Of a DNA stretch of 64,000 nt, positions 2 to 58,462 are shown piece by piece. A model generated the notes under the pieces. It was not told the DNA's origin and did not search any database. It saw only the letters and a program-made list of their open reading frames with translations. The position numbers and the translations under genes are program-made. Numbering within the stretch: position 1 is the first letter of the stretch; every line of letters starts with the position of its first letter. Origin of the DNA: a virus; the IMG/VR virus record IMGVR_UViG_3300041409_000599, positions 16,461 to 80,460 of that record; one strand, 5' to 3'.

Positions 2-412
2 TTCCGCAACGGCGCCGAAGCCAATAGCGAGCCATACAATCGGCTGCGTGCTCTGGTGTGCGCCGTGAGCGGTATCCCGTTCTATTGCCATCACGGCTTT
101 GACTGGCAGACCACCGATATCAGCCTGATCAATCGGCGGTTTGTGCCGGTCGGCGGCGAGCTCACCTGCAGGATGCACGCTTGCGCCGGCTGGAAGCGAG
201 AGGTTGCGCGATTCAAAGCGAATGGACAGATTCCCAGCGATCCGGCAGTACGAAGCGTGCAGCGCCAGTTCGGAGAGTATGCGCTCTGTCTGATCAAAGC
301 CGCGATCGACGCGCCAGAGGATAGCGCAGAAAAGGAAGCGCACTGGAAAGAACTGCGCGGCGTGATGGAGATGTTGTTTCAGCGGCCAGGGCAAGCGGAG
401 GAAGCAGCTTGA
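2..412 (+). CDS. Hypothetical phage protein (5' truncated by window)
   Basis: Frame is open from window start; TTGA overlap with the next gene. Confidence 0.6.
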   Translation, partial: FRNGAEANSEPYNRLRALVCAVSGIPFYCHHGFDWQTTDISLINRRFVPVGGELTCRMHACAGWKREVARFKANGQIPSDPAVRSVQRQFGEYALCLIKAAIDAPEDSAEKEAHWKELRGVMEMLFQRPGQAEEAA

Positions 413-1290
413 CCGCGATGAGCACATCTCGAATCACGCGGCCGGTTCTGCGTTATCACGGAGGCAAGTGGAAACTGGCACCGTGGATCATTTCGCACTT
501 TCCGAAACACCAGATTTACGTTGAGTCTTTTGGTGGCGGCGGGAGTGTGTTGATCTCCAAGGAACGCAGTTACGCGGAAATTTACAACGATCTTGATCTT
601 GAAATCGTTAACCTATTCCGCGTTGTCCGCGACCAGGGACCAAAGCTGATCCGAGCAATCGAACTGACCCCTTACGCGAGGGAAGAATTCAACGCGAGCT
701 TTAGGCCGTCATGCCGGCCGCTGGAGCAGGCGCGGCGCACGGTGCTCCGGAGTTATGCAGGCTTCGGTGGAAACCTGACCAGGATTACTCGCGACCTAAC
801 CCCGCAACGGACCGGCTTCCGCGACTATTCCAAAAAGAATCGGCACGCAATTCCTGCCCAGGACTGGCGCAACTGGCCTGGCGCCCTGCCGAACCTCATT
901 GATCGGCTGCGCGGCGTGATCATTGAAAACCGAGACGCTATCAGGATTATCACGAAGCACGATAGCCCTGAAACCCTCCATTACGTCGATCCCCCTTACG
1001 TCCACACAACTCGACGGTTCGACGGAAACGGCCACCGTGGCCATCGCCATGAATTGACCGACGACCAGCATCGCGAACTGGCAACACTGCTGCACTCCGT
1101 CAAAGGCATGGTCATCATCTCCGGCTATCCCTGCGACCTCTACGACAAAGAACTGTACCCAAATTGGAAGCGCATTGAACGCCAACATTTGGCCGACGGA
1201 GCGCGCAAGCGCACGGAAGTGATCTGGCTAAATCAGAACTGCGTAGACGGTCTGCGCCAAATGTCATTCCCCATGGAGGAAACACAGTGA
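409..1290 (+). CDS. dam: DNA adenine methyltransferase (Dam/D12 class)
   Basis: RYHGGKWKLA, ESFGGGGSV, YNDLD and DPPY motifs. Confidence 0.9.
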   Translation: MTAMSTSRITRPVLRYHGGKWKLAPWIISHFPKHQIYVESFGGGGSVLISKERSYAEIYNDLDLEIVNLFRVVRDQGPKLIRAIELTPYAREEFNASFRPSCRPLEQARRTVLRSYAGFGGNLTRITRDLTPQRTGFRDYSKKNRHAIPAQDWRNWPGALPNLIDRLRGVIIENRDAIRIITKHDSPETLHYVDPPYVHTTRRFDGNGHRGHRHELTDDQHRELATLLHSVKGMVIISGYPCDLYDKELYPNWKRIERQHLADGARKRTEVIWLNQNCVDGLRQMSFPMEETQ

Positions 1291-3056
1291 AACTTTGCTT
1301 CCCCGAAAAAGTCCTCTTGCAGCACTTAATCGCCCTTGGCAAGACTGGCGCCGGCAAATCATCCGCGCTGCGCCACATTGTCGAACACCTGCTGCGCCAC
1401 AAGAAGCGCGTCTGCATTGTCGACATCAAAGGCGACTGGTGGGGATTGAAGTCCTCAGCCGACGGCAAGAGCGCAGGCTTCCCCGTGGTCGCGTTTGGTG
1501 ATTTCCGTGAGCCCAAAGCGCAGGATGTTCCCATCAACGCGCAGTCGGGCAAGCAGGTAGCTGAACTGATTGCCAGCGGCAACCGGCCGTGCATCATCGG
1601 CTTTCGTGGCTGGATGCCCAGCCAGGTCACCGACTTCTGGATTGATTTCGCTTCCACGCTGTTCAACAAGAACGAAGGCGAACTGTTCGTCGTCATCTCC
1701 GAATGCCACAACTATGCGCCCAAGGGCAAGGTGCTGGACCCTAAAGCCGGAAAGGTGCTGCATTGGACGAACCGGCTATTGAGCGAAGGCCGCGGCCTGG
1801 GCATGACGTTCCTGCTCGATTCGCAGCGGCCACAGAAGGTCCACAACGACACGCTGACATCGTGCGAGACGCTGATCGCGATGCGTGTCACCCACGCAGC
1901 CGACCGCAACGCGCTGAAAGACTGGATTGACGGATGCGGCGACAAAGCTACCGGAACCGAAGTACTGAACACTGTCGCCGGGATGGCGCGCGGCGAGGGC
2001 TGGGTATGGTCGCCTGAAATTGGCTTCGGCCCGCAGCGCATCCAGTTCCCGATGTTTGAGACGTTCGATTCCTTCGCGCCGGCACAGCTTCAGAACAAAG
2101 TCAGTGACAGCGGATGGTCGACGGTCGATCTCGAAGTGGTCAAGAGCAAGCTGGCCAAGGTGATTGAGGAAGCGAAGGAGAACGATCCTGCTGCGCTGAA
2201 GGCTGAGGTAGTCCGCTTGAAGCGCGTCGTCATTGAGCAGCAGACCGCGCAAGGTAAGCCGGATCATAGCGAGCAGGCCATTCTGAAGCGGATACAAACG
2301 GCCATCGAAGAACGCGACAAGGATTGGCGCTTTGCCATTGACGTGTTCAAGCGGCAACTCAATAACCGCTATGTTGAAGTGGTCGAGACGATAGGGAAGG
2401 CATTCAAAGACATTTCTTTTCCATGGCCGGCCGATGTCCTGGTCGTATCGCCACCGTCTGCGAAAGTCGGCGGCATAGCAATCCGCACCGATCCCACCAT
2501 GTCGCGTACCCAGGTCGACATCCAAGACCGGAATGGGCGCAGACCGGCGATCACCAACATCGGCTCCAGCAATGGCCACGGCGGTGAATCGCTCAGCGGA
2601 CCGCAGCGCCAGATACTGCAACGTCTGGCCGAGTTTACGGCCTGCGGCCGTTCGTCTGTTCGCCTGTCATGGCTGGCTGCTTCTATGGGGACCACGGTTC
2701 GCGCCCGCGGCTTTGAAGAAAATATGCGCTCGCTAACCAAAGGCGGATTCGTCACAAAGCCTGATGGTGAATCAGTTAGGGCCACAGCAGAGGGGGAAGC
2801 GATAAGTGGTCGCCCCTCGCCACTATCAGGAGAAATCCTGCGCGCCAAGATCACGCAAATGCTCTCCGGTTCACAGGCTGACATCCTCCGCTACCTGATT
2901 GAAAGCCAGAGAGAAGAAGCGATTGAGCACGTAGCGGCTCGTTTCGATACGACCGTGCGCGCCCGCGGATTCGAGGAGAACATCCGTTTCCTGCGCAGCA
3001 ATGACCTGATTGAAACCAACGGCGGCCAGGTCAGAGCGGCAGACTGGATTTTGTAG
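1287..3056 (+). CDS. HerA/FtsK-like (DUF87) ATPase with coiled coil and two tandem C-terminal winged-helix repeats
   Basis: Walker A GKTGAGKS, GRGLG, SQRP; TTVRARGFEEN occurs twice. Confidence 0.8.
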   Translation: MKLCFPEKVLLQHLIALGKTGAGKSSALRHIVEHLLRHKKRVCIVDIKGDWWGLKSSADGKSAGFPVVAFGDFREPKAQDVPINAQSGKQVAELIASGNRPCIIGFRGWMPSQVTDFWIDFASTLFNKNEGELFVVISECHNYAPKGKVLDPKAGKVLHWTNRLLSEGRGLGMTFLLDSQRPQKVHNDTLTSCETLIAMRVTHAADRNALKDWIDGCGDKATGTEVLNTVAGMARGEGWVWSPEIGFGPQRIQFPMFETFDSFAPAQLQNKVSDSGWSTVDLEVVKSKLAKVIEEAKENDPAALKAEVVRLKRVVIEQQTAQGKPDHSEQAILKRIQTAIEERDKDWRFAIDVFKRQLNNRYVEVVETIGKAFKDISFPWPADVLVVSPPSAKVGGIAIRTDPTMSRTQVDIQDRNGRRPAITNIGSSNGHGGESLSGPQRQILQRLAEFTACGRSSVRLSWLAASMGTTVRARGFEENMRSLTKGGFVTKPDGESVRATAEGEAISGRPSPLSGEILRAKITQMLSGSQADILRYLIESQREEAIEHVAARFDTTVRARGFEENIRFLRSNDLIETNGGQVRAADWIL

Positions 3057-3202
3057 AACGGCCATCACGGGGAGATGGCAGAAAGGCACGGTGAAAAATG
3101 TAAGACGAACGACAAACAGCGAAGTATTCATCCACTTCAATTTGGAGCCCGTACTTTGGCGAGTTTCGCGGCCCCACTTTAACCAGCCAACGAGGAGACA
3201 CA

Positions 3203-3520
3203 ATGGAAAGCAGCCAGCCGTCCACCAAAGAACAATTAGCGCAGGTCATCGCGCAGAGCTATTCGTGCGGCATTTTATATAGCGAATTTGTACGTGAAGC
3301 CAAGAAGCGCTTCGTCGCGCACGTACTCAGAGAGAACCGCGGCAACCAAAGCAAGGCCGCCCGCGAACTGGGCATGCATCGCAACACCCTCAGCCGCACC
3401 ATTGCCGAACTGAGACTCAGTCCAGCCGAGTGGGATCCAAACCGCCAGCTCGCCGGCCGCTTTCCGTCAACGCGTTCCGCAACCACACCGGCAGGCAGGC
3501 AGAGAGCGCTCGGAGCGTAA
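3203..3520 (+). CDS. Fis-family HTH protein
   Basis: GNQSKAARELGMHRNTLSR; SD GAGGAG. Confidence 0.85.
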   Translation: MESSQPSTKEQLAQVIAQSYSCGILYSEFVREAKKRFVAHVLRENRGNQSKAARELGMHRNTLSRTIAELRLSPAEWDPNRQLAGRFPSTRSATTPAGRQRALGA

Positions 3521-3781: not shown

Positions 3782-4201
3782 ATGCAGACATTGACCGCTC
3801 GACAGTACAGCGTGTTCGCCTTCATCGCCGATTTCATGATCGAAAAAGGCTACAGCCCAAGCCATGATGAAATCGGCAAAGCACTAGGGTTAAGTTCGCT
3901 CGCCACGGTTCACAAGCACGTAAAAACTCTGTGCGACAAAGGCCATTTAACGCACGATTACAACCGCTCGCGCTCCCTGAAATTGACAGCGCAGGCGGAG
4001 AGTTGGCACCGAAGGCGGAGCGCTGGAAAATCCCATCGATGCGCAAACTGCATAGAAACCGCCCGCGTTCTGGATGAAATCATCACCCAAGCCAGCCCAG
4101 AGGCAATTCGCAGCGCGATCGCCAACGTGAGCACCGGAATAAAAGCTGCACTCAGGGCGCGTGTTGATCCGCAGTTCGCCAAAGAAGCATTTCAGGACTG
4201 A
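3782..4201 (+). CDS. LexA-type DNA-binding domain protein lacking the S24 peptidase domain
   Basis: LTARQ..GYSPSHDEIGKALGLSSLATVHKH..RSL. Confidence 0.85.
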   Translation: MQTLTARQYSVFAFIADFMIEKGYSPSHDEIGKALGLSSLATVHKHVKTLCDKGHLTHDYNRSRSLKLTAQAESWHRRRSAGKSHRCANCIETARVLDEIITQASPEAIRSAIANVSTGIKAALRARVDPQFAKEAFQD

Positions 4202-5392: not shown

Positions 5393-5623
5393 ATGTCACA
5401 AACTGAAGCCAGCGATTCCAGCATCACCGACCTATTCACCTATCACAAACCGGACGAGGTCCAGCAGGCACAATACACGCGCGTCAACGCTGCTGCGGCC
5501 GTTCTGTACGAAGCCATCATGAATAGCTGCCCTCCCTGCGCCGACCGCAGCCACGCCCTGCGTTTGGTGCGCGATGCCAAACAGTGGGCCAATACCGCGA
5601 TCGCGCTGAAAGGCAGAATCTGA
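5393..5623 (+). CDS. Acb2/Tad1-like helical hairpin protein (putative nucleotide-signal sponge)
   Basis: FTYHKP..CP..DRSHALRLVRDAKQWANTAIA; strong SD. Confidence 0.7.
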   Translation: MSQTEASDSSITDLFTYHKPDEVQQAQYTRVNAAAAVLYEAIMNSCPPCADRSHALRLVRDAKQWANTAIALKGRI

Positions 5624-5922
5624 ACGAAGCCGCACAACTCGCCCTCGAAGACTTCGAACGCGAATACGAGGGTGTAGTCTGCGCGGCCTGCCAGCAAGAG
5701 AAATGGCCTAGTTCGCCATTTTGTAAGAAGTGCTCCATCAAGCTTCAGCGGGCACACCTGATGCGGGAGCTAGACGGAATATCGCATGGCTACGGCAAGG
5801 ATTTACAGGAATGGACCGAGTATGCGCTTCAGGCCTACTGGCGTCATTACGATACCTGCCGCGATTTCCTGATCGACGTACGCAGACATTTTAATTCGGA
5901 GAAAGAGAGGACAGAAGCATGA
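5620..5922 (+). CDS. Hypothetical Zn-finger protein
   Basis: CAAC..CKKC; start uncertain. Confidence 0.55.
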   Translation: MNEAAQLALEDFEREYEGVVCAACQQEKWPSSPFCKKCSIKLQRAHLMRELDGISHGYGKDLQEWTEYALQAYWRHYDTCRDFLIDVRRHFNSEKERTEA

Positions 5923-53149: not shown

Positions 53150-53329
53150 TCAGAATTCTTTCTTGGCCGTCAAAATGATGGTGGCTGGCTCGTCAGCTAC
53201 AGTCGTTGCTGTGTGTATGAAGCGATCACCCGTCGTTAAGCACACCTGCACATCCGTGTAGCCATCAGCGATAAGCTTCCGAGCTTCGCCAGTTGCTGCA
53301 ACAAATCGTTTCAAGGTCTCGTTTTCCAT
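53150..53329 (-). CDS. Hypothetical protein
   Basis: Strong SD before MENETL. Confidence 0.5.
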   Translation of the reverse strand: MENETLKRFVAATGEARKLIADGYTDVQVCLTTGDRFIHTATTVADEPATIILTAKKEF

Positions 53330-53729
53330 TAACTTCCTCCCCTTTACCTTCATCGTCTTTGTGCTGAATCAGCCATTGCTGCGCTTCTGCCATGGTCCGC
53401 AGATCGTCACGGCCGGCAAAGTTATAAGCCAGCGCATCGGTCGCGCCGGGAAAGAACCGCTTGAACAGCCGCGCTTTCTGCTCTGCCGTCGCTTCCTTGA
53501 ATTCCAACTCAAAGTCCACGCGTCCCGGCCGCACCAGCGCTGGATCCAGTAACTCAGGGTGGTTCGTCGTCATGAACACAATCGAGCCATCTTTCGCCAT
53601 GAAGCCATCCAGGGAATTGAGCAGGCCGGTCAGCGTCAGCCCTTTGTGTCCGTCTTTTTCGGGATGGCGTTTATGCGCAGCCAGCGCCGCGTCAGATGCG
53701 CCAGCAGTTGCGGCATCATACGCACCCAT
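53265..53729 (-). pseudogene. C-terminal fragment of a BCS1-like AAA ATPase
   Basis: GLLNSLDG, MTTNHPELLDPALVRPGRVD; no Walker A or B. Confidence 0.7.
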
Positions 53730-54078
53730 CCGCTTGGTTTCTCGGATCAATGTCGCGCGGATCGGCTTCGAGCTTCCGCAGCTTTTCACAGGCTTCTGTA
53801 AAAGCTCTGTTGTAGCCGATGCGCCAGTCTTTAACCGCAGCCCATAGTGCTTCCAGGGCATCACACCGTTCAATCGACATCGTGGCGCAGTGCCAGCGAT
53901 CTTTGATTACTTGAGCTATTTCGGGTGGGACGCTGGCTTCGCCGGGCAGGTTAAGATCACCCAGACCGAGAAAATGAACCGATTCAGGCGGGATCTCGAT
54001 GTCGCCCATGCGATCAACGATTTGCTGCTGGGCTTTGCGGAAAGTTTCAGGCGTGAGTTTCGCGGTGGACGGGTCCAT
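53716..54078 (-). CDS. Hypothetical protein
   Basis: SD GGAGGAG. Confidence 0.6.
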   Translation of the reverse strand: MDPSTAKLTPETFRKAQQQIVDRMGDIEIPPESVHFLGLGDLNLPGEASVPPEIAQVIKDRWHCATMSIERCDALEALWAAVKDWRIGYNRAFTEACEKLRKLEADPRDIDPRNQADGCV

Positions 54079-54250
54079 GATCTCCCTCCCTGAGAGTCCT
54101 GGGTATGCACCTGCGCCGTCCGGTTACATCGTCGGGGAAACTACCCGATTTCTGCCTTGAGTTGTGGGGTTCTGTGCCGAATATACCAGCTACTCTGGAA
54201 GGGAAGTCAAGAAATAAATAAGCAGGGAATCAATCTCTAAGGCCTGCGGC

Positions 54251-54682
54251 TCAGATTTTAAACTTTTCGTTGGGCCAGCTCGCCAGGCCAACCAGGTTGG
54301 AAGGGCTCTGCTCTTTCACCGCGGGATCGAAAGTTGGCTCTTTGAATTTTGGCTTCTTGATGCTCTGCCCGTTCGCGGTAATTGACTGGTTAATGCTCTT
54401 TTCTTTATCGACACCCAGTTTGGCTTCGCCTTCGATCACAGCCCGGATGATCACAGATCGCGGCTGCGGGCTGCCTTGCATCTTCAGGAATTCCTCTATC
54501 GCCTGCCAGGGTTTAAGGTTCCTGAATCTCCCCTTAAGCCCCATCGACGACTCGCCCGCCTTCACCGCCAGCAGCCCCTGCTCCGTCGCCCGCCAAATAG
54601 CCAACTCCTGCTCCAGCCGTTCAATCTGCTGGCGCACGAATGCCAAATCCGGCGGTGACTTTGCTTCTGCCATTGCACTCAT
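54251..54682 (-). CDS. Coiled-coil plus putative winged-helix protein
   Basis: QAIEEFLKMQGSPQPRSVIIRAV..SINQSI. Confidence 0.55.
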   Translation of the reverse strand: MSAMAEAKSPPDLAFVRQQIERLEQELAIWRATEQGLLAVKAGESSMGLKGRFRNLKPWQAIEEFLKMQGSPQPRSVIIRAVIEGEAKLGVDKEKSINQSITANGQSIKKPKFKEPTFDPAVKEQSPSNLVGLASWPNEKFKI

Positions 54683-55062
54683 AGAACCGCGTCCACCGCC
54701 TCCAGAAGCTCCGGCACGCGCAGGATATAGATGTTCTCAATGCGGGCCCGGCAGTCAACAAACGCCTCGATGATCGTGGTGGCGGCGGTTGACAGCGCTG
54801 ATTCTTCTAATGCGTTGGAACGCAAAAGATTATCACAGTCGGCGCGAAGCGTAAACGCCGCTTCATGCAGGGCAATGATGTGCGCGTCAGCCTCATCCAG
54901 ATTGTCCCGGTCAATGAACTCTATTTCCGATTCGGCAAAGGGAAGAAAAGCCTTGTCGCACTTCTCCCGGATGGCCCGAACCTCTGCCTGAGGGTCCCCG
55001 TTTACCTTGATGGTTTCCAGTCTTTGAATAAGAACAACCAGCGAATTGTCTCGATCTTGCAT
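54679..55062 (-). CDS. Hypothetical helical protein
   Basis: ATGA coupling to the next gene. Confidence 0.6.
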   Translation of the reverse strand: MQDRDNSLVVLIQRLETIKVNGDPQAEVRAIREKCDKAFLPFAESEIEFIDRDNLDEADAHIIALHEAAFTLRADCDNLLRSNALEESALSTAATTIIEAFVDCRARIENIYILRVPELLEAVDAVL

Positions 55063-55106
55063 TTGCTTTCATCCTGTGGCGCGCGAATTAGCTCTTCACC
55101 CTTTTT

Positions 55107-55865
55107 CTACCTGGACGCAATCGCGACTCTGCCGGCCGCTTGCTGCGTTTGCTCAAACTCATCCAATACCTGCTCCTTCTGTTCCGCTGTGGCCTTCTCA
55201 AAGACCGGCGCAGGCATCAACAGAACCCCGGTCCACCACAACAGCATTATTAGATACGCAATCATCCCCGCGTGTTTTGCGGCTTCCGTAAGTTCCGCCG
55301 GTACCTTATGGCCACGGACAAAGACCGCGAATATAGACACCGTGAAGTACAGAACGAAACCTAGGCAGATCGATGCGGCCCGTGTTTGCCGGCGGAATAC
55401 CTTCAGCGTTCTCCAGAAAATCAGGATTACCGAAAACGCCACCCACAAAGCCCCGGACATCCACTGCTCCGCTGTCATCAGTGCGCGGGTGATGTTGCCG
55501 CCGCGGGAAGCGTAGAACACCCCGGCCGCCGTTAAGGCCGCGGCCATGCCGGTCCCCATGAAAATAAGCAGCCTGGCCGTCACCCATGCCGGCAGGGCGC
55601 CACGTGGGCCCAGAAGCTTGCCGCTCAACTCGCCGGCAGTCATCGCCGCGCAGATCCCACCAAAGAAAATCAGCATGTAGTACGTGATGACGTAAGTAAC
55701 GCTGAAGTGGGTCACGTAGACGATTAAAGACGCTGCCGCCGCGAACGCCTGAAAGAAAACATACCCATACAGACGTGGATATGATTCATAGATGCGGCGA
55801 AGGTTGAGGACGGAGCAGAGAGCGAGATTCGCCGCGATAATAGCTAATTCGAAAAGTATGGTCAC
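55107..55865 (-). CDS. Seven-TM membrane protein
   Basis: About 7 hydrophobic helices and a short cytoplasmic tail. Confidence 0.75.
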   Translation of the reverse strand: MTILFELAIIAANLALCSVLNLRRIYESYPRLYGYVFFQAFAAAASLIVYVTHFSVTYVITYYMLIFFGGICAAMTAGELSGKLLGPRGALPAWVTARLLIFMGTGMAAALTAAGVFYASRGGNITRALMTAEQWMSGALWVAFSVILIFWRTLKVFRRQTRAASICLGFVLYFTVSIFAVFVRGHKVPAELTEAAKHAGMIAYLIMLLWWTGVLLMPAPVFEKATAEQKEQVLDEFEQTQQAAGRVAIASR

Positions 55866-55944
55866 AGGGCTGTACCTCTATTTCTGAGGAAATTGCGAGG
55901 TGGCAGCCCGGATTCTATAGTCTGGTGCGATACACAGAGAAAAC

Positions 55945-56127
55945 TTATTTTTGCAGTGCGGTTGGCGGATTTCCAGGACAGAGCGGCGGACACGGCGGAA
56001 TGCAGCAGTCCAGCGCCGGCGGTGCGATCACGGCCTGCTCGATTGGCTGGTCCCCTGAAGCGCTTACCGTCGCGCAGAATCCCATGGTTAAGACCATGAT
56101 CGAGATCATACGAATAATGGTTTTCAT
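55945..56127 (-). CDS. Small secreted Pro/Cys-rich peptide precursor
   Basis: GGAG SD; signal ..VSA|S; DCCIPPCPPLCPGNPP. Confidence 0.7.
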   Translation of the reverse strand: MKTIIRMISIMVLTMGFCATVSASGDQPIEQAVIAPPALDCCIPPCPPLCPGNPPTALQK

Positions 56128-56333
56128 TTGATTCTCCAGAGCCGATACGGCGGCTATGGGTTGAATTTATCATGGTGAAGTTCATTTCGTTCGCCTTTAT
56201 TTTGGGAGTTGTATTTTTCAAAACTACAAACTTCAACTAGCAAATGCTGGGTTCCCACTTCGGGCCTACTTGCACTTCACTTTCTAAGTCGTCTCGCTTT
56301 CTCTTGACCGTTTCTAGCTTAACTTTATGCTGC

Positions 56334-57104
56334 TTAGCCTATTACCTGCTGGCGCCAAAGCTTTTCTAGCTGCTCCATGTCCCATCCCGATACGTGCTTG
56401 ATGCCGTGATACTTCAAAGCCTCTTCTACAGAAGAGTGCGGGATTCTGCCGGACATAGAATGACCGTTTACCACCGCCATGACCGCCCTTATTGCTGTGG
56501 CAACCCTTGTGCGCGATACGTCTTCATTCCGGTTTGCTACCATCTCTCTGCGGAATCTGCGTTCGCTCTCGTAGCGGGTGAGATGGTCGCGGCGCACCGC
56601 AATATTGTGGATGACACTAAGCTGCGCCTCTGTGGTGGTCTCAACAATTATTGGAACGCGATAGCACTTAACACAATCCGAGTCTTCGCTGTATTCCAGC
56701 ATGCCCCAGCCCCGCGGTACTTCATCAATGCCGATGGATAGTCCCCTAGGAAAAGCAAGATACGCCAGATTGGTAGGGATTGGCCGCGCCCATTTCTTGT
56801 CGCCGCGAAAGTCTGACCGGGACGTTTTCACTTCCACCAGCACCGTCATCAGCTTCTGCATTCCGGCGGCAAGCCGGTACCACGCCTGATACTCGGTGTG
56901 CCTGTAGTTCGGCCTGCGCTTGAGTAATTTCAGGGCAATCAATTCCGTTTGAGTCGGTACGACCACGCCCGCGACATCAGCCACCCACGCATCGCCGATT
57001 GTAACCTCGGTTTCAATCGGCTTGCAGCCTCGTTCGTCAAGGTATCTGACGGCAGCCGCGGTGACTGCTTTAGTGATTCCCGTCTTGTTGCGGTCGTCAA
57101 TCAT
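56334..57104 (-). CDS. MmcB-like PD-(D/E)XK nuclease
   Basis: VADV..VEVKTSRSDFRGDKKW..GWG. Confidence 0.75.
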   Translation of the reverse strand: MIDDRNKTGITKAVTAAAVRYLDERGCKPIETEVTIGDAWVADVAGVVVPTQTELIALKLLKRRPNYRHTEYQAWYRLAAGMQKLMTVLVEVKTSRSDFRGDKKWARPIPTNLAYLAFPRGLSIGIDEVPRGWGMLEYSEDSDCVKCYRVPIIVETTTEAQLSVIHNIAVRRDHLTRYESERRFRREMVANRNEDVSRTRVATAIRAVMAVVNGHSMSGRIPHSSVEEALKYHGIKHVSGWDMEQLEKLWRQQVIG

Positions 57105-57314: not shown

Positions 57315-57364
57315 CAGCCCTGAAAAGGCTGGCGTCGGCGGTTCGATTCCGTCCCTGGCCACCA
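57315..57364 (+). other. attR: 3' half of tRNA-Phe(GAA)
   Basis: CAGCC-CTGAAAA-GGCTG..GGCGGTTCGATTCCGTCCCTGGCCACCA; the 5' acceptor strand and D arm are absent. Confidence 0.85.
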
Positions 57365-57585
57365 TATTTCAACATCTTACACGTCATCAAAAACCGGCTT
57401 GGGTACATGTTGGGCACAAACTTTTCTAGCTCTCTAAAGGTCGCCCGGCATATACCGCGATGAATTCCCACAGTTCGAATCCTGGCCTACCTCCGACTTC
57501 ATCTTTGATCTGCCGGAACTCTGGTCCGTTGGCGACGTAACGAGGATGAGGAAGAAAATTAGCAGCGAGAGAAAAAAAGGGGAGT

Positions 57586-58203: not shown

Positions 58204-58462
58204 GGTTCCTTACCTTCCTTACTGGCGTCTGTAGCCACAAACATTTCGTCCGGCCATTCTGCCCGGCCTATTATACTAACTAACAAAGAGCAATTTTTTA
58301 GGAGCGGCAACTCTGAATCCCGGCAAGCGTAAACCAGCCCCCAAAGCTGCCGACCCAGGATGCTACGCTTCTAGATTCCGGAACTTCCACACAATGCCCT
58401 ACCGTAGGGCTAGAAGAAGCAAATGGTCCTGCAGAACCTTGGTTTGTCGATGCACTCGTTAT

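What the first reader, a model, noticed from the sequence alone, without database searches (positions are those of the whole stretch)
54251..56127. Secreted Pro/Cys peptide + 7TM protein + two coupled cytoplasmic proteins: candidate phage peptide-signalling (lysis-lysogeny) system
Seen: a co-oriented cassette of a 60-aa precursor (Sec signal, mature tail DCCIPPCPPLCPGNPP), a 7TM protein with no kinase domain, a 127-aa helical protein and a translationally coupled coiled-coil/wHTH protein. It lies near attR, directly upstream of the AT-rich intergenic gap that heads the long minus-strand transcript. No CI-type repressor is visible in this window. Known: arbitrium and Agr systems pair a small exported peptide gene with its receptor. 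Inference: this is an unrelated ligand-receptor-regulator architecture in a diderm phage.
Basis: inference. Interest (0 to 1): 0.8.

Follow-up and report, generated by a model that had tools for sequence, protein, structure and literature searches.

The report
Prophage peptide, 7TM protein, regulator cassette
A four-gene operon at the end of a soil Acidobacteria prophage encodes a tiny exported cysteine/proline peptide, a GPCR-shaped membrane protein and two cytoplasmic proteins. The peptide and membrane-protein pair recurs across a large undescribed family and probably forms a peptide-sensing module, but no role in the phage's lysis-lysogeny choice is shown.

Summary
On the minus strand lie a 60-aa Sec-type precursor, a 252-aa seven-helix protein, a 127-aa helical protein and a 143-aa coiled-coil plus winged-helix protein. 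The last two genes overlap in ATGA. The cassette sits 1.2 kb inside attR of a 69.9-kb prophage.

Every relative I could inspect carries the peptide: five further four-gene cassettes, and at least 17 of 27 (about 22 by eye) more distant Terriglobia loci, against 0.65 in shuffles.

The 7TM protein belongs to a large family with no Pfam model (1,916 representative clusters). Its predicted fold is GPCR/rhodopsin-like, N-out/C-in, with the cytoplasmic face the more conserved.

The phage-type cassettes form one clade nested among chromosomal pairs. They sit beside att in at least three or four related prophages and share a conserved promoter-like leader.

My best reading is a prophage-borne peptide, membrane sensor and winged-helix module. 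Binding, export and output are all inferred.

The lysis-lysogeny role is not supported. The "no repressor" argument is a window artefact, and the module is mostly chromosomal.

This scan had already noted the chromosomal peptide/7TM pair on other Acidobacteria DNA. The prophage version with two soluble partners is what is new here.

The parts
56128..56203 (-). Conserved promoter-like leader of the cassette. It contains the motif AAAATAAAGGCG (about 56203-56192), an extended -10-like TG-n-TAAATT (56172-56164), a small hairpin GCCG/CGGC (56154-56141) and the SD GGAG (56137-56134).
   Evidence: The blocks are invariant in all five phage-type cassettes, although their proteins share only about 25% identity. 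The motif is absent from the chromosomal pairs. This is the AT-rich gap, 42.7% GC. Promoter function is inferred.
55945..56127 (-). 60-aa peptide precursor. It has a Sec-type signal (predicted cleavage VSA|SG) and a 37-aa Pro-rich tail with the Cys framework CC-x3-C-x3-C.
   Evidence: ORF and sequence. Homologous precursors lie upstream of every phage-type 7TM gene. Composition. Cleavage and disulfides are inferred.
55107..55865 (-). 252-aa seven-helix membrane protein, N-out/C-in, with a GPCR/rhodopsin-like predicted fold and no enzymatic domain.
   Evidence: AF2 pLDDT 80.7. VIA Z 15.1 over 212 aligned residues at rmsd 4.3 to a designed GPCR-like fold, with only 7TM receptors and rhodopsins below it. 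K+R count is 12 in inside loops against 4 outside. Family of 1,916 representative clusters without a Pfam model.
54679..55062 (-). 127-aa acidic helical cytoplasmic protein.
   Evidence: Orthologues at 61-65% identity occupy the same position in L004, L005 and L006. Proteins of the same size occupy it in L002, L034 and L039. The Atlas model gives only generic helical-bundle neighbours. No family hit.
54251..54682 (-). 143-aa protein with an N-terminal long helix (13-41) and a C-terminal winged-helix domain (54-139). Its start overlaps the 127-aa stop in ATGA.
   Evidence: AF2 pLDDT 74.1. VIA Z 8.6 to the histone H5 globular domain (72 aligned, rmsd 2.3), followed by Fur, MarR, forkhead and RNAP-delta winged helices. 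The C-terminal motif G-x-x-x-W-P/S is conserved in all six cassettes.
57315..57369 (.). attR core (context). A 55-bp exact direct repeat of record positions 3964-4018, made of the 3' half of a tRNA-Phe(GAA)-like sequence.
   Evidence: The integrase beside the left copy is confirmed.

Best explanation
The cassette is an autonomous accessory operon carried at the att-proximal end of a family of temperate Terriglobia (Acidobacteriota) phages. It derives from a widespread chromosomal module of that class: a small exported Pro-rich, disulfide-looped peptide plus a GPCR-fold 7TM protein.

Proposed mechanism:
1. The precursor is exported by Sec and cleaved after VSA (inferred).
2. Its four cysteines form two disulfides in the periplasm (inferred).
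3. The peptide contacts the variable periplasmic face of the 7TM protein (inferred).
4. The state of the 7TM protein is passed through its highly conserved cytoplasmic loops and juxtamembrane tail to the two translationally coupled cytoplasmic proteins (inferred).
5. The winged-helix protein provides a nucleic-acid-binding, probably transcriptional, output (fold shown by prediction only).

It is not resolved whether the peptide acts between cells or only within the producer's periplasm, as CpxP or MgrB do on their sensors. The controlled genes are unknown.
For: Linkage:
- A peptide gene lies directly upstream of the 7TM gene in the window, L002, L004, L005, L006, L034 and L039.
- A strict detector (signal-like N-terminus, at least 3 Pro, and C-x2-8-C in the tail) finds one beside 17 of 27 Terriglobia homologues. 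Shuffled loci give 0.65 of 27, and only 7 hits occur elsewhere in these loci.
- Some loci carry 2-3 tandem peptide genes (L016, L035).

Receptor-like nature of the 7TM protein:
- Confident 7-helix model. All top fold matches are 7TM receptors or rhodopsins.
- Atlas structural neighbours include 7TM sensor modules fused to GGDEF/EAL, PAS, histidine-kinase and AraC outputs.
- Family-wide, the nearly invariant residues are only F32, E79, G169 and W211, so there is no catalytic set.
- One relative (P0095) is a STAND NTPase, an extra TM helix and the 7TM core. This fits N-out topology and wiring to a signalling ATPase.
- In the phage-type subfamily the cytoplasmic half is more conserved than the periplasmic half: 0.74 against 0.64, p=0.0015. 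ICL3 and inner TM6 reach about 0.95.

Output: the 143-aa protein has a winged-helix fold, and ATGA coupling of the two cytoplasmic genes is kept in all cassettes.

Autonomy and phage carriage:
- The leader is conserved.
- The cassette lies beside att in the window prophage, in the left-flank element, in a related Angelobacter prophage at tRNA-His and at the tRNA-like end of viral contig L039.
- The phage-type 7TM proteins form one clade (100/95) nested among chromosomal ones.
Against: - No step of the mechanism is shown experimentally.
- In a diderm, a Sec-exported peptide reaches only the periplasm, and no outer-membrane export route is linked.
- There is no recognisable output enzyme, and no contact between the 7TM protein and the 127/143-aa proteins has been shown.
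- GPCR-like Z scores are in the range that helical bundles can reach by arrangement alone (note).
- The winged-helix match is moderate (Z 8.6) and could serve protein or RNA binding.
- The invariant upstream DNA motif is shared by cassettes whose winged-helix recognition helices differ. It is therefore more likely a promoter element than that protein's operator.
- The peptides are about as conserved as the receptor and show no pherotype-like hypervariability, though only four close pairs are available.
Confidence: 0.45

Rival explanations
1. Arbitrium-like phage communication. Lysogens or infected cells release the peptide. Other cells carrying the phage sense it through the 7TM protein, and the winged-helix protein biases the lysis-lysogeny or induction decision.
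For: It is the phage-borne clade of a peptide/receptor-like module with a putative DNA-binding output. It lies beside att in several related temperate phages. It has its own conserved regulatory leader. An XRE gene is divergent from the peptide gene in L002 and L006.
Against: Most family members are chromosomal and unrelated to phage. A separate candidate regulator sits beside the integrase. In L039 the cassette converges on its neighbours. Outer-membrane passage of a 37-aa peptide is unexplained. No operator is shared with the phage's early regions: the motif occurs only at the cassette.
Confidence: 0.13
2. Lysogenic-conversion envelope function. The periplasmic peptide and the inner-membrane 7TM protein act as a structural pair that blocks DNA entry or envelope damage by superinfecting phages (superinfection exclusion or defence). 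The two cytoplasmic proteins act as regulators or effectors.
For: The att-proximal position and own-promoter layout are typical of prophage morons. The products are in the envelope. One relative is fused to a STAND NTPase, a class common in conflict systems. A genome can hold many paralogues.
Against: A conserved syntenic chromosomal copy beside rpsA in five genomes argues for a housekeeping role of the parent family. The phage-type clade is only moderately divergent.
Confidence: 0.15
3. Peptide toxin or bacteriocin with a polytopic immunity protein. The exported peptide harms cells lacking the cassette and the 7TM protein protects the producer, giving lysogens a competitive edge.
For: The gene order of a small exported peptide followed by a multi-TM protein is the classic bacteriocin-immunity layout. 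There are tandem peptide genes (L016, L035) and peptide-less or tandem 7TM genes (L018-L020) that resemble orphan immunity genes.
Against: The mature peptide is anionic (-2), 27% proline and not amphipathic. It has a Sec signal rather than a double-glycine leader, and there is no linked ABC or TolC exporter for crossing the outer membrane. The 7TM cytoplasmic face is conserved more than the exposed face. The coupled winged-helix protein has no place in this model.
Confidence: 0.1
4. The peptide is a substrate or cargo of the 7TM protein (processing, anchoring or sorting, as for exosortase or rhombosortase substrates or for AgrB/AgrD) rather than its ligand.
For: The peptide and the polytopic protein are strictly linked.
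Against: No conserved Cys, His, Arg, Ser or Asp set exists in the 7TM family: only F32, E79, G169 and W211. The peptides have an ordinary cleavable Sec signal and no C-terminal sorting helix.
Confidence: 0.07

Closest known systems
Chromosomal 'small exported Pro-rich peptide + orphan 7TM protein' pairs of Acidobacteriota
   Same: Homologous 7TM protein (HMM E down to 1e-30 and beyond). The same adjacent signal-peptide gene with a Pro/Cys-loop tail. A translationally coupled downstream partner.
   Different: The phage-type clade has a 4-Cys peptide (CC-C-C) instead of a single C-x4-8-C loop. It has two soluble partners (helical protein plus coiled-coil/winged-helix protein) instead of a 1-TM helical partner or a C-terminal extension. 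It has its own conserved leader and sits in prophages beside att.
Arbitrium (AimP-AimR-AimX) and other phage RRNPP communication systems
   Same: A phage-borne gene for a small Sec-exported pro-peptide lies next to its presumed receptor and a regulator, in a temperate phage.
   Different: The receptor here would be a membrane 7TM protein, not a cytoplasmic TPR/HTH RRNPP protein. There is no sequence relation, the host is a diderm, and the peptide is long, disulfide-bearing and not obviously imported. A preprint states that all known phage-encoded QS systems use an intracellular receptor (10.1101/2021.07.15.452460, abstract seen).
Agr (AgrD-AgrB-AgrC-AgrA) peptide quorum sensing of Firmicutes
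   Same: A small peptide gene, a polytopic membrane protein and a DNA-binding regulator in one operon. The peptide is cyclised through cysteine.
   Different: There is no histidine-kinase or response-regulator domain, no AgrB-type peptidase and no thiolactone chemistry implied. A Sec signal replaces an amphipathic leader.
Peptide pheromone with 7TM receptor in eukaryotes (yeast alpha-factor/Ste2, peptide GPCRs)
   Same: It works like this in outline: a secreted, processed peptide, sometimes from multi-copy precursors, and a seven-helix N-out/C-in receptor without enzymatic domain. The predicted fold matches GPCR-like bundles best.
   Different: There is no sequence homology and no G proteins. 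The similarity rests on a predicted fold only.
Small envelope modulators of bacterial sensors (CpxP-CpxA, MgrB-PhoQ)
   Same: A small periplasmic or membrane polypeptide, with cysteines in MgrB, is encoded near the membrane sensor on which it acts within the same cell.
   Different: Those sensors are histidine kinases, and the modulators are unrelated in sequence and size.

Membership tests
Arbitrium / RRNPP phage communication | Cytoplasmic receptor with TPR repeats and an N-terminal HTH (AimR, Rap, PlcR type) | tested here: not met
   No TPR or RRNPP Pfam or NCBIfam hit in any of the four proteins. The candidate receptor is a 7TM membrane protein.
Arbitrium / RRNPP phage communication | Small Sec-exported pro-peptide gene adjacent to the receptor gene | tested here: met
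   A 60-aa precursor with a Sec-type signal lies 79 nt upstream of the 7TM gene, and this is conserved in relatives. Processing to a short mature peptide and re-import were not testable.
Agr-type quorum sensing | Sensor histidine kinase (HisKA/HATPase_c) and LytTR response regulator | tested here: not met
   No such domains at E<0.1. The 7TM protein ends 35 residues after TM7.
Agr-type quorum sensing | AgrB-type membrane peptidase with catalytic His/Cys | tested here: not met
   Across 100-145 family members the only nearly invariant residues are F32, E79, G169 and W211.
Described 7TM receptor families (Pfam 7tm_1-type GPCRs, microbial rhodopsins, 7TMR-DISM) | Sequence match to the family model | tested here: not met
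   0 of 100 members match any such Pfam family. There is no PDB sequence match. No retinal-binding Lys is conserved in TM7.
Described 7TM receptor families (Pfam 7tm_1-type GPCRs, microbial rhodopsins, 7TMR-DISM) | Seven-helix N-out/C-in bundle of GPCR/rhodopsin arrangement | tested here: inconclusive
   The top 50 fold matches are all GPCR-like or rhodopsin. The best is Z 15.1, rmsd 4.3, 212 aligned, and Foldseek E is no better than 9e-3. Z is near the level helical bundles can reach by arrangement alone. Topology is supported by the K+R count of 12 inside against 4 outside and by the extra TM helix in fusion P0095.
Winged-helix (wHTH) DNA-binding proteins, incl. HARE-HTH / linker-histone type | Three-helix bundle plus beta-hairpin wing | tested here: met
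   The model of residues 54-139 aligns to the histone H5 globular domain at Z 8.6 (72 residues, rmsd 2.3). It also aligns to Fur, MarR, forkhead and RNAP delta. This is a predicted fold only. No Pfam model matches, and DNA binding was not testable.
CI/Cro (XRE) phage repressors | HTH_3/HTH_31 domain in a cassette protein | tested here: not met
   None occurs in the four window proteins. An XRE gene is divergent from the paralogous cassettes in L002 and L006 only.
Spanins (Rz1-type o-spanin: small Pro-rich Cys-bearing lipoprotein) | Lipobox [LVI][ASTVI][GAS]C at the end of the signal peptide | tested here: not met
   The window signal has ..TMGFCATVSA|S with F at position -1 of the only Cys. 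L006 has no Cys in its signal. The conserved AxA cleavage motif is present instead.
Class II bacteriocin / microcin with immunity protein | Double-glycine leader with a dedicated ABC exporter | tested here: not met
   The leader is a Sec-type signal, and there is no transporter gene in or beside the cassette in any locus. Immunity function was not testable.
Known anti-phage defence systems (PADLOC-DB 2.0) | Match of any cassette protein to a defence-system model | tested here: not met
   No hit at E<0.1 for the four proteins.

The most novel reading that the evidence does not exclude
This would be the first phage-encoded cell-cell communication system outside the RRNPP type, and the first in a diderm host. 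A disulfide-knotted Pro-rich peptide released by lysogens is read at the inner membrane by a GPCR-fold 7TM receptor without kinase. The receptor relays through a helical adaptor to a coiled-coil/winged-helix regulator, which sets lysis-lysogeny, induction or superinfection behaviour. The phage would have captured the module from a host-wide, undescribed family of bacterial peptide/7TM signalling pairs.
Probability: 0.13. Interest if true: 0.9.

Novelty: categorically new. Interest (0 to 1): 0.7.

Why it matters
If the peptide/7TM pair is a ligand-receptor system, Acidobacteria, a dominant and poorly understood soil phylum, would use a signalling architecture not described in bacteria. It would consist of a secreted disulfide-looped mini-peptide read by a GPCR-shaped protein with no kinase, cyclase or other enzymatic output.

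The prophage version gives the family a tractable handle. It is a compact four-gene operon with its own promoter and a putative DNA-binding output, carried by temperate phages beside their attachment site. Peptide, receptor and read-out can therefore be tested together, and a phage phenotype (induction, lysogenisation, exclusion) can be scored.

It would also widen the known range of phage-borne communication or lysogenic-conversion modules beyond the cytoplasmic RRNPP receptors of Firmicute phages. Even if the function proves to be exclusion or immunity, the 7TM family remains a large gap in annotation: 1,916 clusters at 50% identity and no Pfam model.

Tried and rejected
- **Peptide-7TM complex.** Complex prediction with mature peptide residues 24-60 and the 7TM protein, both as alignments, returned 'no answer' (ipSAE 0.01, controls not run). 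This is neither for nor against binding.
- **Neighbourhoods of the closest homologues.** The neighbourhoods of P0002, P0003, P0007 and P0008 could not be fetched, so no real peptide-receptor covariation test was possible (only four close pairs).
- **Expression.** No RNA holder was listed for the cassette, and read laying was not used.
- **Other phage collections.** Viral-contig scans with the 7TM alignment and the 127-aa alignment found nothing beyond the own record. tblastn against 50,697 deposited phage genomes gave no match.
- **Family libraries.** Pfam, PHROGs, NCBIfam and PADLOC gave no family for any of the four proteins. The only trace was a sub-threshold DUF7358 hit (E 0.011). A Pfam scan of 100 family members gave nothing, as did PDB sequence searches with the 143-aa and 7TM profiles.
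- **Partner homology.** hhalign of the 127- and 143-aa families against the 1-TM partner family of chromosomal loci showed no relation. The C-terminal extension of P0121 is not a detectable fusion of any partner.
- **Operators.** No inverted-repeat operator lies in either gap. The motif AATAAAGGCG occurs only at the cassette within the window.
- **Promoter and terminator scan.** The consensus scan was no better than shuffles.
- **Literature.** Three searches found no description of the module.
- **Ideas considered and dropped.** O-spanin: no lipobox. Exosortase or AgrB-like processing enzyme: no catalytic residues conserved. Metal (Cu/Hg) handling through cysteines: the 7TM cysteines C17 and C167 are not conserved in paralogues. 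Bowman-Birk-like protease-inhibitor loop: only a resemblance recalled from memory, not testable here.
Full report
**1. What is in the sequence**

The cassette is on the minus strand. Its genes are:
- a 60-aa ORF at 56127..55945
- a 252-aa ORF at 55865..55107 (GTG start, AGAGG about 9 nt upstream)
- a 127-aa ORF at 55062..54679
- a 143-aa ORF at 54682..54251, whose ATG overlaps the stop of the 127-aa ORF (ATGA)

The small ORF has a Sec-type N-terminus: MKTIIRM, a hydrophobic core, then VSA|SG. Its 37-residue tail has 10 Pro, 4 Cys and net charge -2, ending in ..DCCIPPCPPLCPGNPPTALQK. None of the four proteins matches Pfam, PHROGs, NCBIfam or PADLOC.

**2. Where it sits**

The window is bases 16461-80460 of an 80,460-bp IMG/VR record. 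A 55-bp exact direct repeat lies at record positions 3964-4018 and at window 57315-57369. It consists of the anticodon arm, T arm and acceptor 3' strand of a tRNA-Phe(GAA)-like sequence. A tyrosine integrase lies beside the left copy. The prophage is therefore about 69.9 kb, and the cassette starts 1.2 kb inside attR. Only a PD-(D/E)XK/MmcB-like gene (56334-57104) lies between them.

Neither repeat copy is an intact tRNA. The locus therefore looks like an array of integrated elements.

A LexA/MarR-type wHTH gene lies beside the integrase, outside the window (record 5492-5761).

The gap below the cassette (54079-54250) is 52.9% GC and so not AT-rich. The AT-rich gap is the one above the peptide gene (56128-56333, 42.7% GC).

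**3. The cassette is conserved as a unit**

A second, very divergent copy lies in the left flank of the same record (L002). It has a peptide ending ..FCCGNPPPCPGMPMCPVN, a 7TM protein (26% identity, E 5e-13), a 141-aa protein and a 129-aa protein with the same ATGA overlap. It also has a divergent XRE gene.

The database of 5.8 billion proteins holds only nine close 7TM homologues. Every one whose DNA I could obtain has the full cassette:
- L004: a Candidatus Angelobacter MAG (Terriglobia)
- L005 and L006: soil metagenome contigs

A search with the 143-aa family found a further cassette of the L002 type on a 67.7-kb viral contig (L039). It lies next to a tRNA-like contig end and a Dam methylase. 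A sixth, chromosomal version is L034 in the Angelobacter genome.

The Angelobacter cassette starts 160 nt after an intact tRNA-His. It is followed by homologues of the window phage's large structural proteins. It is therefore again the att-proximal end of a related prophage.

**4. The core is a peptide/7TM pair of a large family**

A profile search of 1.84 billion representative proteins gave 1,916 hits at E<=1e-3 and 803 at E<=1e-10. Almost all are about 250-aa stand-alone proteins, and the Atlas assigns their clusters to Acidobacteriota. None of 100 members matches a Pfam family.

In 151 genomes of the class, 17 carry homologues, and the Angelobacter genome carries seven. In the 27 loci fetched, a strict detector finds a signal-peptide ORF with a Pro-rich tail and C-x2-8-C next to the 7TM gene in 17. 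Shuffled loci give 0.65. Five more loci have Cys-less or otherwise deviant Pro-rich peptides visible by eye.

Typical mature peptides are very short, for example DGGPIPCPPGRKCK or DGGGGPVPLCYPSPCRIK, and follow an AxA cleavage motif. Some loci have two or three tandem peptide genes (L035, L016), or peptide genes downstream of the 7TM gene (L011, L013, L015, L016).

The partner downstream of the 7TM gene varies. It can be a translationally coupled 1-TM helical protein, a C-terminal extension, or the helical plus winged-helix pair.

**5. What the proteins look like**

*The 7TM protein.* The AF2 model (pLDDT 80.7) has seven membrane helices and a C-terminal helix. Foldseek and VIA-align return only GPCRs, GPCR-like designs, the LYCHOS 7TM domain and microbial rhodopsins. 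The best match is Z 15.1, rmsd 4.3, 212 aligned residues. That is suggestive but close to what helical bundles can reach by arrangement alone.

The positive-inside count (12 against 4 K+R) gives N-out/C-in. The fusion protein P0095 has a STAND NTPase, one extra TM helix and then the 7TM core, which needs the same topology. It also shows the core wired to a signalling ATPase. Atlas structural neighbours include 7TM sensor modules of GGDEF/EAL, PAS, histidine-kinase and AraC proteins.

Family-wide, only F32, E79, G169 and W211 are nearly invariant. This argues against an enzyme. Within the phage-type subfamily the cytoplasmic half is more conserved than the periplasmic half (0.74 against 0.64, p=0.0015). 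ICL2, ICL3 with inner TM6 (0.95) and the juxtamembrane tail stand out. That is what a receptor with a fixed intracellular partner and a changing outer face would show.

*The 143-aa protein.* It models as a long helix plus a winged helix. The best match is Z 8.6 to the histone H5 globular domain, followed by Fur, MarR, forkhead and RNAP delta.

*The 127-aa protein.* It is only a generic helical bundle.

**6. Regulation and origin**

Upstream of the peptide gene, all five phage-type cassettes share invariant non-coding blocks, although their proteins are only about 25% identical. The blocks are:
- AAAATAAAGGCG
- an extended -10-like TG-n-TAnAnT
- a GCCGC/GCGGC hairpin
- the SD TGGAG

These appear. 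The first motif is absent from the chromosomal pairs and occurs nowhere else in the window. The cassette is thus its own transcription unit.

In L039 the cassette converges on the following genes, so it does not generally head a long phage transcript.

A maximum-likelihood tree puts all 4-Cys phage-type 7TM proteins in one clade (100/95). The chromosomal L027 and the four-gene chromosomal L034 are successive outgroups (97/91). The phages therefore took the module from the host lineage.

**7. Interpretation**

*Shown:* a real, conserved operon; strict peptide-7TM linkage; a receptor-shaped, non-enzymatic 7TM protein; a winged-helix fold in the last protein; prophage carriage beside att; an own conserved leader.

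*Inferred:* signal cleavage, disulfides, peptide binding to the outer face, relay to the 127- and 143-aa proteins, and transcriptional output.

I rate the generic peptide-sensing module at 0.45. Within or beside it I rate:
- arbitrium-like control of lysis-lysogeny: 0.13
- superinfection exclusion or defence: 0.15
- toxin-immunity: 0.10
- peptide as substrate of the 7TM protein: 0.07

The main weaknesses are the outer-membrane barrier for a Sec-exported peptide, the lack of any shown contact, and the moderate fold scores.

**8. Relation to the known and to this scan**

No component is homologous to arbitrium, Agr, RRNPP, GPCR or rhodopsin families, spanins, bacteriocin systems or catalogued defence systems (see the membership tests). 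Three literature searches found no description.

This scan had already noted the chromosomal peptide/7TM pair in other Acidobacteria genomes, and the left-flank copy of this record. I re-derived those features independently here.

New in this finding are the phage-borne clade, its 4-Cys peptide, the helical plus winged-helix partner pair, the conserved leader and the att-proximal position in several related prophages.

**9. Limits**

- The single complex prediction gave no answer.
- No RNA data were listed.

Noticed in passing
L002/L003 (record positions 860-3283, 13 kb before the window) and window 58216-58272: A second, divergent peptide/7TM/141-aa/129-aa cassette with a divergent XRE gene lies just outside attL. 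Neither att copy is an intact tRNA. A 56-bp, 96% identical remnant of the 3' end of the 129-aa gene lies in the right host flank (23 aa, E 3e-10). The tRNA-Phe locus looks like an array of successive integrations and decay.
   Followed up: partly
window 53265-53873 (-) and 53716-54078 (-): This ORF carries only the C-terminal part of a BCS1-like AAA ATPase: profile positions 71-130 of AAA plus the lid, and positions 304-405 of 430 in phrog_7485, with weak IetA hits in PADLOC. No Walker A region is present. It overlaps a 120-aa ORF of no family. It is either truncated or a split gene.
   Followed up: no
window 56334-57104 (-): A 256-aa protein lies between attR and the cassette, with weak MmcB-like (PD-(D/E)XK) and phrog_631/2776/5429 matches. 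In related elements this slot holds a Dam methylase (L039) or an XRE gene plus a 110-aa gene (L002).
   Followed up: no
L003 5492-5761 (+), beside integrase L003 4071-5360 (-): An 89-aa LexA_DNA_bind/MarR-type wHTH protein is divergent from the integrase. It is a candidate phage regulator that the 64-kb window does not include.
   Followed up: partly
protein P0095 (634 aa): A natural fusion of an nSTAND1 NTPase (E 4.6e-72), one extra TM helix and the 7TM core of this family. It is the only fused output domain seen among the 150 best representatives.
   Followed up: partly
L016, L035, L028: Peptide genes are multiplied. L016 has three tandem genes with identical tails (..SDGGPIPCPPGRKCK) downstream of the 7TM gene. 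L035 has two tandem genes. L028 has one precursor with repeated EQGDPPIPPGHVVA units and no Cys.
   Followed up: no
L021, L023, L024, L025, L031: One subfamily of the peptide/7TM pair (tail ..P-x-C-P/A-P-x-D-P-N-A-C-G) keeps a fixed chromosomal position next to rpsA on the opposite strand in five genomes. This indicates a vertically inherited copy.
   Followed up: no
window 409-1290 (+) and L039 184-1068 (+): The window phage's D12-class Dam methylase is 56% identical to the methylase that sits directly beside the cassette in viral contig L039. The two phages share modules in different positions.
   Followed up: no
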